From the NCBI RefSeq assembly GCF_053078305.1, contig NZ_CP166879.1: DNA of 64,000 bases; one strand, 5' to 3'. This document shows positions 3,479 to 49,469 of this stretch, piece after piece (within the stretch, counting starts at the first letter, position 1; the number at the start of each line of letters is the position of its first letter). The notes below the pieces were generated by a model that ran no database searches, was not told the origin of the DNA, and saw only the letters and a list, made by a program, of their open reading frames with translations. The translations under genes and the position numbers were made by a program.

Positions 3479-3506
3479 CGCTTACCCTGAATATTCAGGG
3501 TAAGCG
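3479..3506. terminator. 28-bp perfect palindrome CGCTTACCCTGAAT|ATTCAGGGTAAGCG downstream of maeB; putative terminator or insulator hairpin
   Basis: Exact reverse-complement symmetry read from sequence; the T-run precedes rather than follows it, so not a canonical intrinsic terminator. Confidence 0.45.
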
Positions 3507-16366: not shown

Positions 16367-17026
16367 ATGCCAGCTTTAGATTTGATTCGACCGTCTGTCA
16401 CCGCTATGCGGGTGATTGCCTCCGTTAACGCCGATTTTGCGCGTGAACTGAAATTGCCGCCGCATATTCGTAGCCTCGGTCTGATTTCTGCCGATTCTGA
16501 CGACGTAACCTACATTGCGGCTGACGAAGCGACCAAGCAGGCGATGGTGGAAGTGGTGTATGGCCGCTCGCTGTATGCGGGCGCTGCACACGGCCCGTCA
16601 CCGACTGCCGGTGAAGTGCTGATTATGCTTGGTGGGCCAAACCCGGCGGAAGTGCGTGCCGGTCTGGATGCGATGGTTGCGCATATTGAAAATGGCGCAG
16701 CTTTCCAGTGGGCTAATGACGCGCAAGATACGGCATTCCTGGCACATGTAGTTTCGCGTACCGGTTCTTATCTCTCATCAACCGCCGGGATCACGCTTGG
16801 CGATCCGATGGCGTATCTGGTGGCACCGCCGCTGGAAGCGACCTATGGCATTGATGCAGCCCTGAAGTCTGCCGACGTACAGCTGGTGACCTATGTCCCG
16901 CCACCGTCTGAAACCAACTACTCGGCAGCATTTTTAACCGGTAGCCAGGCCGCGTGTAAAGCAGCCTGTAACGCCTTTACCGATGCAGTGCTGGAAATCG
17001 CGCGTAATCCAATCCAGCGTGCGTAA
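16367..17026 (+). CDS. eutL: microcompartment shell protein EutL (tandem BMC domains)
   Basis: 219 aa. Confidence 0.95.
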
Positions 17027-17038
17027 TGGAGGTTGCCG

Positions 17039-17539
17039 ATGATCAATGCACTGGGATTGCTGGAAGTGGACGGCATGGTCGCTGCGATAGATGCAGCGGA
17101 TGCCATGCTCAAAGCAGCTAACGTTCGTCTGCTCAGTCACGAAGTGCTTGACCCTGGTCGCTTAACGCTGGTGGTGGAAGGCGATCTGGCGGCGTGTCGT
17201 GCTGCGCTGGACGCAGGTTGTGCTGCCGCGATGCGTACCGGGCGTGTCATCAGCCGTAAGGAGATCGGTCGGCCAGACGATGACACCCAGTGGCTGGTTA
17301 CTGGCTTTAACCGCCAGCCGAAGCAACCCGTAAAGGAACCCGACGCGCCAGTTATCGTCGCGGAATCTGCTGACGAGTTGTTGGCGCTGTTAACATCAGT
17401 ACGTCAGGGAATGACGGCAGGAGAAGTGGCTGCCCACTTTGGCTGGCCGCTGGAAAAAGCCAGAAATGCGCTCGAACAGCTCTTTTCTGCCGGGACGTTA
17501 CGTAAACGCAGTAGTCGTTATCGTCTCAAGCCCCATTAA
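17039..17539 (+). CDS. eutK: microcompartment shell protein EutK (BMC domain with C-terminal helix-turn-helix-like extension)
   Basis: ORF track begins at TTG 17033; ATG at 17039 follows GGAGG at proper spacing, giving 166 aa. Confidence 0.9.
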   Translation: MINALGLLEVDGMVAAIDAADAMLKAANVRLLSHEVLDPGRLTLVVEGDLAACRAALDAGCAAAMRTGRVISRKEIGRPDDDTQWLVTGFNRQPKQPVKEPDAPVIVAESADELLALLTSVRQGMTAGEVAAHFGWPLEKARNALEQLFSAGTLRKRSSRYRLKPH

Positions 17540-17550
17540 CCTGTCGGAGG

Positions 17551-17577
17551 TGCCGGGTGTCCTACAACACCCGGCAT
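17551..17577 (+). promoter_or_regulatory. hairpin TGCCGGGTG-N8-CACCCGGCA immediately upstream of eutR start codon
   Basis: 9-bp perfect stem read from sequence; no obvious Shine-Dalgarno between it and the eutR ATG. Confidence 0.35.
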
Positions 17578-17584
17578 TAACATC

Positions 17585-19544
<1,960 letters not shown>

Positions 19545-35224: not shown

Positions 35225-35252
35225 AAAAATGGCGCCGATGGGCGCCATTTTT
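35224..35252. terminator. bidirectional intrinsic terminator between convergent pdxK and crr
   Basis: AAAAAAATGGCGCC-GATG-GGCGCCATTTTT. Confidence 0.8.
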
Positions 35253-38179: not shown

Positions 38180-38207
38180 AAAAAAGCACCTAAAAAGGTG
38201 CTTTTTT
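38180..38207. terminator. intrinsic terminator downstream of cysK (bidirectional form)
   Basis: AAAAAAGCACC-TAAAAA-GGTGCTTTTTT. Confidence 0.8.
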
Positions 38208-46023: not shown

Positions 46024-46112
46024 TGTTCAGTCCTCGTCACTGTACGAGGTAATATCGGTAGAAGAACAAGGAACTTGAGAAGAAAAATCAATCTTACAAA
46101 TCGCAGATAGCA

Positions 46113-46139
46113 AAAAAGCGCCTTTAGGGCGCTTTTTTA
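46113..46139 (-). terminator. intrinsic terminator of the valU-valX-valY-lysV tRNA operon
   Basis: AAAAAAGCGCC-TTTA-GGGCGCTTTTTT immediately 3' of lysV. Confidence 0.85.
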
Positions 46140-48231: not shown

Positions 48232-48263
48232 AAACGGCAGGAGATAATATCCTGCCGTTTTTT
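48232..48263. terminator. bidirectional intrinsic terminator between convergent gltX and yfeD
   Basis: AAACGGCAGGA-GATAATA-TCCTGCCGTTTTTT. Confidence 0.8.
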
Positions 48264-49239: not shown

Positions 49240-49315
<76 letters not shown>

Positions 49316-49354
49316 AATTTTGCACCCAGCAAATTTGGTACGTAAACGCATCGT

Positions 49355-49430
<76 letters not shown>

Positions 49431-49469
49431 AATTTTGCACCCAGCAAATTTGGTACGTAAACGCATCGT

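What the first reader, a model, noticed from the sequence alone, without database searches (positions are those of the whole stretch)
17540..17590. Hairpin and missing Shine-Dalgarno immediately upstream of eutR
A perfect 9-bp stem (TGCCGGGTG / CACCCGGCA) ends 8 nt before the eutR ATG, and no SD-like sequence lies between them. This would keep translation of the positive regulator low and could mark the weak internal promoter or processing site that gives basal EutR expression, as described in Salmonella.
Basis: partly seen in the sequence, partly recalled or inferred. Interest (0 to 1): 0.25.

Follow-up and report, generated by a model that had tools for sequence, protein, structure and literature searches.

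The report
Split ribosome-binding site of eutR
The hairpin in front of the E. coli ethanolamine regulator gene eutR is a real, evolutionarily conserved RNA structure, and the "missing" ribosome-binding signal (GGAGG) sits just before it, so folding probably brings that signal next to the start codon, as in two phage T4 genes.

Summary
A perfect 10-bp stem (17551-17560 / 17567-17576, 6-nt loop) ends 8 nt before the eutR ATG (17585), and no Shine-Dalgarno (SD) lies in between.

Two points change the reading:
- **The hairpin (HP1) is a conserved sense-strand RNA structure.** In 29 distinct sequences from Escherichia, Salmonella, Citrobacter, Klebsiella, Phytobacter and others, 91.6% of cells pair. 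Eight of 12 pairs show compensatory double changes.
- **An invariant GGAG(G) (17546-17550) abuts the 5' side of the stem.** Folding cuts the GGAGG-to-AUG distance from 34 nt to about 8 nt.

Relatives without a hairpin (Buttiauxella, Hafnia, Pectobacterium and others) carry the SD at normal spacing. Intestinirhabdus has a 77-nt hairpin in place of the 26-nt one, yet keeps GGAGG at its base and 9 nt to the AUG.

Best reading, at confidence about 0.5: a split ribosome-binding site of the phage T4 gene 25/38 type.

A second hairpin (17583-17628) pairs the AUG with codons 12-15. That stretch is the most synonymously constrained part of eutR, so low translation remains plausible.

The promoter or processing-site idea has no sequence support. 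Some relatives have the hairpin plus a downstream SD, so the hairpin may also act at the mRNA level. All functional claims need experiments.

The parts
17537..17539 (+). eutK stop codon (TAA), 6 nt upstream of the GGAGG
   Evidence: ORF list, RefSeq annotation of an identical E. coli region. Invariant in the alignment.
17546..17550 (+). GGAGG, the proposed eutR Shine-Dalgarno, immediately 5' of the stem
   Evidence: Sequence. GGAG is invariant in 31 of 31 distinct sequences while the five intergenic columns before it vary. Anti-SD duplex -10 to -10.8 kcal/mol in most of the clade, -9.5 in Intestinirhabdus and -5.6 to -6.6 for the two GGAG-only taxa, against -0.9 to -2.4 for anything in the proximal 20 nt.
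17551..17576 (+). HP1, the reported hairpin: 5' arm 17551-17560, loop 17561-17566, 3' arm 17567-17576
   Evidence: Inverted repeat, 100% complementary. Fold of -23.6 kcal/mol for the 65-nt segment, z -3.6. Covariation in 29 sequences: 91.6% paired, 8 of 12 pairs with double changes, slid controls 38-46%. G.U polarity points to sense-strand RNA. Single copy in the window. No Rfam family.
17577..17584 (+). A/U-rich unpaired spacer (TTAACATC) between HP1 and the AUG; no SD
   Evidence: The stem-to-AUG distance is 8-11 nt in 31 distinct sequences.
17585..17587 (+). eutR start codon
   Evidence: ORF. RefSeq annotation starts eutR at the same ATG. N-terminus MKK... is conserved across genera.
17583..17628 (+). 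HP2, an AU-rich hairpin that pairs the AUG with codons 12-15 (arms 17583-17594 and 17617-17628)
   Evidence: Inverted repeat. Fold -9.7 kcal/mol, z -4.0. RNAalifold consensus in 22 species. 98% paired but nearly invariant, with only one-sided changes, so no covariation proof.
17612..17647 (+). eutR codons 10-21, a zone of extreme synonymous-site conservation
   Evidence: The 6-codon window starting at codon 11 has the lowest synonymous diversity in the gene: 0.012 against a mean of 0.31, rank 1 of 316, from 35 distinct CDS.
17544..17547 (+). Candidate helix P0, 5' strand (UCGG, overlapping the first two G of the SD). It would pair with 17637-17640. Unproven.
   Evidence: Predicted in the 101-nt fold. 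93% paired, but only 4 bp and no double changes.
17637..17640 (+). Candidate helix P0, 3' strand (CCGA in codons 18-19). Unproven.
   Evidence: Lies within the synonymously constrained zone.

Best explanation
HP1 is a conserved RNA stem-loop that sits inside the eutR ribosome-binding site.

The gene's only Shine-Dalgarno (GGAGG, 17546-17550) lies directly 5' of the stem and the AUG lies 8 nt 3' of it. When the stem folds, 26 nt are looped out. The GGAGG-to-AUG distance then drops from a non-functional 34 nt to about 8 nt, so a 30S subunit can hold the SD and the start codon at once. This is a split (noncontiguous) ribosome-binding site of the kind shown experimentally for phage T4 genes 38 and 25.

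A second, weaker hairpin (HP2) pairs the AUG with codons 12-15 and probably limits how often initiation succeeds, keeping EutR output modest.

**Shown here:** both structures exist in the sequence. HP1 is maintained by compensatory evolution. GGAG, its adjacency to the stem and the stem-to-AUG spacing are conserved. No proximal SD exists. Codons 11-16 are frozen at synonymous sites.

**Inferred:** the ribosome uses the upstream GGAGG across the folded hairpin. HP2 reduces initiation. Ribosomes terminating at the eutK stop, 6 nt upstream of the SD, may feed the site.
For: 1. **HP1 covaries.** 29 distinct sequences give 91.6% paired cells against 38-46% in slid controls. Eight of 12 pairs carry double changes, a value reached by 0 of 500 shuffles, in 56 compensatory cells (for the first 24 sequences).
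2. **GGAG position is fixed.** GGAG is invariant and sits 1-3 nt from the core stem in 31 of 31 distinct sequences. The stem-to-AUG distance is 8-11 nt. The total unpaired GGAG-to-AUG distance is 9-14 nt (mode 11), against 35-39 nt linear. In the 5' flank only the stop codon and GGAG are invariant.
3. **No proximal SD in the clade.** Proximal values are -0.9 to -2.4 kcal/mol. The upstream site gives -10 to -10.8 in most of the clade, -9.5 in Intestinirhabdus and -5.6 to -6.6 in the two taxa that keep only GGAG.
4. **Complementary distribution.** Relatives without HP1 (Buttiauxella-like L074, L031, L033; Hafnia L034, L073; Pectobacterium, Lonsdalea, Brenneria, Dickeya) have GGAG(G) at normal spacing. 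Taxa lacking a stem-adjacent upstream GGAG (L071; L070, where it sits in the loop) have a downstream SD. No taxon sampled has a hairpin with no SD on either side.
5. **Natural experiment.** Intestinirhabdus alba replaces the 26-nt hairpin with one 77-nt hairpin (-50.3 kcal/mol, z -4.3). GGAGG stays at its base and 9 nt remain to the AUG, for a linear distance of 86 nt.
6. **Precedent.** T4 gene 38 goes from 22 to 5 nt and gene 25 from 27 to 11 nt, with mutational support and the same pattern of close relatives having the hairpin and distant ones not (PMC3014915; PMC7297116).
7. **HP2.** Fold z -4.0, consensus fold, and the strongest synonymous constraint in the gene.
Against: - There is no experimental evidence for eutR. 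Nothing here shows that the ribosome uses the upstream GGAGG.
- A hairpin also exists in relatives that have a canonical SD downstream of it (L071, L070) or on both sides (L069, Yokenella L030). The hairpin therefore has, or once had, a role that does not depend on bridging SD and AUG.
- HP1 (10-12 bp; 77 nt in one genus) is larger and more stable than the T4 hairpins. Whether it fits between the SD helix and the P site is inferred, not shown.
- The effective spacing of 8-13 nt from GGAGG is on the long side of optimal.
- In MFE folds the last two G of GGAGG can form G.U pairs, and a 4-bp helix P0 could sequester the first two.
- The predicted unpaired probability of GGAG is low in many species. 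It is equally low for canonical SDs of outgroups, so this measure does not discriminate.
- HP2 and P0 lack compensatory changes.
Confidence: 0.5

Rival explanations
1. Translation dampener without SD. eutR is translated weakly and SD-independently from the A/U-rich spacer. HP1, together with HP2, merely hinders ribosome access. The upstream GGAGG is not used as an SD.
For: No proximal SD. The AUG is predicted to be paired, at about 5-8 kcal/mol to open in most clade species. EutR is a low-abundance autoregulated activator with a weak constitutive P2 (PMC5821096). The A-rich spacer and AAA AAG second and third codons could support SD-independent initiation (established knowledge, not tested here).
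Against: It leaves several facts unexplained: GGAG invariant in 31 of 31 sequences, its fixed adjacency to the stem, its retention with a 77-nt hairpin in Intestinirhabdus, and the appearance of a proximal SD exactly where the stem-adjacent upstream GGAG is absent.
Confidence: 0.2
2. mRNA-level element. HP1 is an intercistronic stability or processing hairpin. It could be a 3'-exonuclease barrier that stabilises the upstream eutS-eutK message after termination or cleavage. It could instead be a 5' stem-loop that stabilises a processed or P2-derived eutR transcript. On this view its position relative to the SD is incidental.
For: A stable GC-rich hairpin sits just after the eutK stop. A hairpin at this junction persists in relatives whose SD lies downstream of it (L071, L070), so it does not need to be inside the RBS. 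Stem sequence is free to vary while pairing is kept, as expected for a purely structural barrier. The eutR mRNA is known to be RNase E-sensitive (PMC8565329).
Against: It does not explain the conserved GGAG adjacency, the constant 8-11 nt to the AUG, or the absence of any other SD. No 3'-end or 5'-end data are available. It is not exclusive of the split-RBS model.
Confidence: 0.2
3. DNA-level element: part of the weak internal promoter P2, or a palindromic operator for a DNA-binding protein.
For: P2 is said to precede eutR in Salmonella (PMC5821096). The element is a perfect palindrome in E. coli.
Against: No sigma-70-like site in 17000-17800. The stem sequence changes between genera while complementarity is kept, with 28 sense-strand G.U cells against 8 A.C cells. 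That fits RNA and not a protein-recognised DNA sequence. Reduced synonymous variation that could mark P2 lies further upstream, in eutK codons at about 17459-17520.
Confidence: 0.04
4. Intrinsic terminator or attenuator that limits read-through from the main eut promoter into eutR.
For: A GC-rich stem at the end of a long operon segment. Reduced read-through would fit low EutR levels.
Against: No U-tract. AUUAACAUC follows the stem in E. coli and UUAAAAGAUC in Citrobacter. The terminator scan finds nothing. Autoinduction requires read-through from P1 into eutR (PMC5821096).
Confidence: 0.03
5. The GGAGG serves a mini-ORF inside the hairpin (GTG 17557 to TAA 17578-17580 in E. coli) that is translationally coupled to eutR.
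For: In E. coli a GTG lies 6 nt after GGAGG and opens a 7-codon ORF ending 4 nt before the eutR ATG.
Against: Not conserved. Twelve of 31 distinct sequences have no start codon 4-15 nt after GGAG. Where one exists, its position, frame and length differ, even within Escherichia, where E. whittamii lacks it.
Confidence: 0.03

Closest known systems
Split (noncontiguous) ribosome-binding sites of phage T4 genes 38 and 25 (Gold 1988; Nivinskas et al. 1999; Malys & Nivinskas 2009; summarised in PMC3014915 and PMC7297116)
   Same: The SD is too far from the AUG in linear sequence: 22 and 27 nt in T4, 34 nt here. A stable hairpin between them reduces the spacing to a functional value: 5 and 11 nt in T4, about 8 nt here. 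Close relatives share the hairpin and distant relatives have a contiguous site. Both lie at an intercistronic junction (gene 26-25 in T4, eutK-eutR here).
   Different: This is a cellular regulator gene, not a phage gene. The hairpin is larger (26 nt, 10-12 bp, and 77 nt in Intestinirhabdus). The AUG is additionally masked by a second hairpin. No mutational or probing data exist for eutR. Some relatives have the hairpin outside the RBS.
E. coli thrS, rpmE and fis noncontiguous initiation regions (Sacerdot et al. 1998; PMC7297116)
   Same: These are cellular mRNAs in which a stable hairpin within the ribosome-binding track is tolerated and helps arrange initiation elements.
   Different: In those cases the hairpin separates an upstream enhancer or AU-rich element from the SD. 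Here it separates the SD from the start codon. In thrS and rpmE the hairpin is an operator bound by the gene's own product. No such ligand is known here.
Start-codon or SD-masking hairpins and standby-site initiation (de Smit & van Duin; tisB standby site, cited in PMC7297116)
   Same: HP2 pairs the AUG with early coding sequence. An SD exposed next to a stable helix could hold a 30S until HP2 opens.
   Different: Standby binding is not shown here. HP2 has no covariation support, only invariance and synonymous constraint.
Intercistronic mRNA-stabilising hairpins in polycistronic operons (general class; from established knowledge, not examined here)
   Same: A GC-rich stem-loop directly after a stop codon, between highly expressed structural genes and a weakly expressed distal gene.
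   Different: Such elements need no fixed relation to the downstream SD or AUG. HP1 has one.

Membership tests
Split RBS of T4 gene 25/38 type | SD separated from the start codon by a linear distance too long for direct use (more than about 15 nt) | tested here: met
   34 nt from GGAGG to AUG in E. coli. 35-39 nt from GGAG in 31 distinct sequences. 86 nt in Intestinirhabdus.
Split RBS of T4 gene 25/38 type | The intervening sequence forms a stable hairpin that restores a functional spacing | tested here: met
   Met in silico. HP1 is -18.6 kcal/mol and shows covariation. The unpaired GGAG-to-AUG distance is 9-14 nt, mode 11. The T4 values are 5 and 11 nt.
Split RBS of T4 gene 25/38 type | No alternative SD at canonical spacing | tested here: met
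   The best anti-SD duplex in the proximal 20 nt is -0.9 to -2.4 kcal/mol in all hairpin-clade species tested.
Split RBS of T4 gene 25/38 type | Relatives lacking the hairpin have a contiguous SD-AUG site | tested here: met
   Buttiauxella-like, Hafnia, Pectobacterium, Lonsdalea, Brenneria and Dickeya. Caveat: some relatives have a hairpin plus a proximal SD.
Split RBS of T4 gene 25/38 type | Hairpin-destabilising mutations lower translation and compensatory mutations restore it; the upstream SD is required | not testable with these tools
   Needs reporter fusions or toeprinting.
Intrinsic (Rho-independent) terminator | GC-rich stem followed by a U-tract | tested here: not met
   Stem present, no T-run. 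The terminator scan found 0 sites in 17000-17800.
Sigma-70 promoter (P2) | -35 and -10 hexamers with 16-18 nt spacing at or near the element | tested here: not met
   0 sites at the scan threshold in 17000-17800. A weak promoter below threshold cannot be excluded.
Repetitive extragenic palindromes (REP/BIME-like) | Many dispersed copies per genome | tested here: not met
   One copy in the window at up to 3 mismatches. The 261-nt region has a median of one place per E. coli genome.
Any curated Rfam family | Covariance-model match at gathering score | tested here: not met
   Only chance-level hits, E of 4 or more, far below gathering scores.
RNA thermometer (for HP2) | A weak helix masking the SD or AUG that melts between about 30 and 42 C | tested here: inconclusive
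   Predicted HP2 pair probabilities stay at 0.8 or above from 20 to 45 C. Prediction only.

The most novel reading that the evidence does not exclude
The eutR initiation region (SD, HP1, HP2 and possibly a closing helix P0) is a regulated translational switch rather than a fixed-strength site.

One version makes EutR synthesis depend on ribosomes arriving from eutK. These terminate 6 nt before the SD and would open P0 and HP2. Long transcripts from the induced promoter would then be translated far better than basal P2 transcripts, adding a translational layer to the autoinduction loop.

A second version has a trans-acting factor bind the invariant GCCGG/CCGGC stem base. One candidate is the unexplained helix-turn-helix C-terminal domain of EutK, which is encoded immediately upstream.
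Probability: 0.12. Interest if true: 0.7.

Novelty: new member of a known kind. Interest (0 to 1): 0.5.

Why it matters
EutR controls the ethanolamine utilisation operon and also virulence genes in EHEC, Salmonella and Citrobacter. Its level is set by a positive-feedback loop whose behaviour depends on how much EutR is made per transcript.

If the split site is real, eutR would be a chromosomal, phylogenetically well-supported example of an SD-hairpin-AUG arrangement. The papers I read describe that arrangement only for phage T4. In the cellular cases they cite (thrS, rpmE, fis), the hairpin lies upstream of the SD.

The finding also has three practical consequences:
- It cautions against calling genes 'SD-less' from the proximal 15-20 nt alone.
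- It explains why gene callers mis-start EutR inside the hairpin in some genomes.
- It gives concrete, cheap experiments (SD, stem and compensatory mutants) to measure how EutR output is set.

Tried and rejected
- **Within-species comparison.** 5,377 of 5,417 E. coli records are at least 99% identical, so they carry no information on structure.
- **Plain MAFFT alignment of the intergenic region (A1).** It put the inner stem out of register between genera. I replaced it with a neutral symmetric N-padded alignment anchored on the stem base. No folding was used, but indels are forced to be symmetric, which should be kept in mind.
- **MFE-derived SD-to-stem and stem-to-AUG distances.** These were noisy because of weak outer pairs. 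I replaced them with core-stem geometry.
- **Unpaired probability of GGAG in a -80..+80 context.** It is low both here and for canonical SDs of outgroups, so it does not discriminate. Dropped.
- **Rfam and the promoter/terminator scan.** Nothing found.
- **Mini-ORF in the hairpin.** Not conserved.
- **Repeated-element idea.** Single copy.
- **MavR sRNA.** It binds the 3' part of the eutR CDS and is unrelated to this element.
- **Thermometer reading of HP2.** No predicted melting in the physiological range.
- **Helix P0.** Only 4 bp and no double changes, so it stays a candidate.
- **Kofoid et al. 1999 (tried as PMC94038).** Not held in the library. I could not check whether the original eut sequence paper mentions the hairpin or the position of P2.
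- **Two paper queries** failed on term length.

Full report
**1. What is in the sequence.**

The window is E. coli. The 261 nt around the finding match 5,417 E. coli records, and 5,377 of them are at least 99% identical. The local genes are eutB, eutC, eutL, eutK (17039-17539) and eutR (from 17585), followed by hemF and amiA on the opposite strand.

The reported arms are present. The perfect stem is 10 bp rather than 9: TGCCGGGTGT at 17551-17560 pairs with ACACCCGGCA at 17567-17576, with a 6-nt loop. The MFE fold adds two G.U pairs.

The isolated hairpin folds at -18.6 kcal/mol. The 65-nt segment folds at -23.6 kcal/mol with z = -3.6. Eight nt (TTAACATC) separate the stem from the ATG.

Perfect 10-bp hairpins with short loops occur at six distinct loci in the 64 kb. 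The scan counted 14 nested registers, against 0.63 expected. There is no Rfam match. There is no promoter-like or terminator-like site in 17000-17800. There is no second copy in the window.

**2. The hairpin is a conserved RNA structure.**

E. coli genomes are uninformative here, so I fetched EutR loci from one genome per species (63 loci). I added ten more contigs through protein look-ups.

In Escherichia, Salmonella, Citrobacter, Klebsiella, Pseudocitrobacter, Phytobacter and several unnamed Enterobacteriaceae, a hairpin occupies the same place. Its stem sequence differs between genera:
- Citrobacter: GCCGGGGGCTTC / GAAGCTTCCGGC
- Klebsiella: GCCGGGAGCGT / ACGCTCCCGGT
- Phytobacter: GTCGGGGG / CACCCGAC
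- L072: GCCGAATGCC / GGCATTCGGC

These sequences are shown.

MAFFT misregistered the inner stem. I therefore built a symmetric alignment anchored on the stem base, without using any folding.

On 29 distinct sequences, 91.6% of cells form standard pairs, against 38-46% when the 3' partner is slid by 1-3 columns. Eight of 12 pairs carry compensatory double changes, a value reached by 0 of 500 shuffles, in 56 compensatory cells. The covariation score is 0.46, against 0.06-0.11 in the slid controls (for the first 24 sequences).

G.U cells (28) far outnumber A.C cells (8). The helix is therefore selected in the sense-strand RNA, not in DNA or an antisense transcript.

**3. The 'missing' Shine-Dalgarno is immediately 5' of the stem.**

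GGAGG lies at 17546-17550. GGAG is invariant in all 31 distinct hairpin-clade sequences and sits 1-3 nt from the core stem. The five intergenic columns between the eutK stop and GGAG all vary.

The stem-to-AUG distance is 8-11 nt. The total unpaired GGAG-to-AUG distance is 9-14 nt (mode 11), against 35-39 nt in linear sequence.

The proximal 20 nt contain no SD in any of these species: the best anti-SD duplex is -0.9 to -2.4 kcal/mol. The upstream site gives -10 to -10.8 kcal/mol in most of the clade. It gives -9.5 in Intestinirhabdus and -5.6 to -6.6 in the two taxa that keep only GGAG.

More distant relatives without a hairpin place GGAG(G) at ordinary spacing, with proximal duplexes of -8 to -10.2 kcal/mol where measured. 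These are Buttiauxella, Hafnia, Pectobacterium, Lonsdalea, Brenneria and Dickeya. Buttiauxella-like L074 still has a EutK with its C-terminal domain directly upstream, followed by an 18-nt spacer.

Intestinirhabdus alba first looked like an exception. It keeps TAAccagtcGGAGG but has 77 nt where others have 26. Those 77 nt fold into one long hairpin (-50.3 kcal/mol, z = -4.3). Its base closes right after GGAGG and ends 9 nt before the AUG. What is conserved, then, is the closed-base geometry and not the insert.

**4. Best mechanism.**

These facts match the split ribosome-binding sites of phage T4 genes 38 and 25. There a hairpin between SD and AUG reduces 22 nt to 5 and 27 nt to 11. Destabilising mutations lower translation. 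Close relatives share the hairpin while distant ones have contiguous sites (PMC3014915; PMC7297116).

The cellular examples cited in those papers (thrS, rpmE, fis) split an upstream enhancer from the SD, not the SD from the AUG.

I infer that eutR uses the upstream GGAGG across the folded HP1. This inference is not tested.

**5. A second layer.**

A weaker hairpin (HP2, 17583-17628; -9.7 kcal/mol, z = -4.0) pairs the AUG with codons 12-15. RNAalifold predicts it as the consensus structure in 22 species.

Both arms are almost invariant, so HP2 has no covariation support. It is 98% paired, and the few changes are one-sided, half of them wobble-compatible.

However, codons 11-16 form the most synonymously constrained 6-codon window of the whole gene. 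Their diversity is 0.012 against a gene mean of 0.31, rank 1 of 316, from 35 distinct CDS. The constraint continues to codon 21.

A 4-bp helix between UCGG (17544-17547) and CCGA (17637-17640) would close a three-way junction and touch the SD. It remains unproven.

Opening the AUG region costs 4.6-7.8 kcal/mol in most hairpin-clade species, against 0.6-5.2 in outgroups. HP2 is not predicted to melt between 20 and 45 C.

**6. What weakens the split-RBS reading.**

A hairpin at the eutK-eutR junction also exists where a canonical SD lies downstream of it (L071, Entomohabitans L070). It also exists where SDs lie on both sides (L069, Yokenella L030). So the hairpin has, or once had, a role that does not require bridging.

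An mRNA-stability or processing function is the obvious candidate, and it can coexist with the split site. eutR mRNA is RNase E-sensitive (PMC8565329). The sRNA MavR described there binds the 3' part of the CDS, not this region.

The other rivals fare poorly:
- Terminator: there is no U-tract.
- Promoter or operator: the element shows an RNA-type covariation pattern.
- Mini-ORF: the candidate ORF is not conserved.
- Repeated element: the hairpin is single-copy.

**7. Literature.**

The EutR papers I could read describe P1, the weak constitutive P2 that precedes eutR, and the autoinduction loop. They do not mention this hairpin or the SD arrangement. I could not access Roof & Roth 1992 or Kofoid et al. 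1999, so prior notice of the stem-loop cannot be excluded.

**8. Verdict.**

- **Observation:** confirmed and extended.
- **Interpretation:** partly supported.
- **Structure:** near certain.
- **Split-RBS function:** about 0.5.
- **Novelty:** a new member of a known kind, namely a T4-type split ribosome-binding site in a cellular regulator gene.
- **Interest:** moderate (0.5).

Noticed in passing
window 18630-18658: The eutR ORF here is 357 aa instead of the usual 350. A 1-bp deletion in a G-run (GGGGG to GGGG) just before the normal TGA shifts the frame. This adds EGVTPNP and makes eutR overlap the 3' end of hemF by 17 nt. It could be a real strain polymorphism or a homopolymer sequencing error; a database cluster of 129 member sequences, 100% identical over 98% of the query, may carry the same longer form (not checked).
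   Followed up: partly
window 17459-17520 (eutK codons about 125-145), including inverted repeat 17461-17472 / 17478-17489: The last 25 or so codons of eutK show low synonymous diversity, mostly 0.00-0.17 against a mean of 0.28. This could mark the weak internal promoter P2 or another RNA element. A weak TTACGT...TATCGT pair is visible by eye but is below the scan threshold.
   Followed up: partly
L011, L016, L029 (Citrobacter FP75, Res13, C. gillenii) and L066, upstream of eutR: In these taxa an ATG, GTG or TTG in the HP1 loop is in frame with eutR and not followed by a stop, because the usual TAA after the stem is changed to TGC or TTC. An EutR extended by 7-8 residues is therefore formally possible. 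A gene caller used such a TTG for the 357-aa protein P0013.
   Followed up: no
L030 (Yokenella) and L069, eutK-eutR junction: These taxa carry GGAG(G) on both sides of the hairpin. The Yokenella stem is bulged. They look like evolutionary intermediates between contiguous and split layouts.
   Followed up: partly
proteins P0002, P0004, P0009, P0057, P0077, P0078: Database 'EutR' entries are fused to BMC/EutK, EutB or EutC domains. They probably reflect frameshifts, deletions or annotation artefacts in individual E. coli assemblies.
   Followed up: no
window 49312-49339 and 49427-49454: An identical 9-bp-stem hairpin (ACCAAATTT TGCACCCAGC AAATTTGGT) occurs twice, 115 nt apart. This suggests a tandemly repeated unit.
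   Followed up: no
window 3479-3506, 35225-35252, 38180-38207, 46112-46138, 48232-48260: These are the other perfect hairpins of 10 bp or more in the window. Several have A-run and T-run flanks typical of bidirectional intrinsic terminators.
   Followed up: no
E. coli record NZ_CM184352.1 (H30): In this genome only the last 71 nt of the query match, and the neighbouring feature is a tyrosine recombinase/integrase. A mobile element may have replaced eutK and the hairpin upstream of eutR.
   Followed up: no
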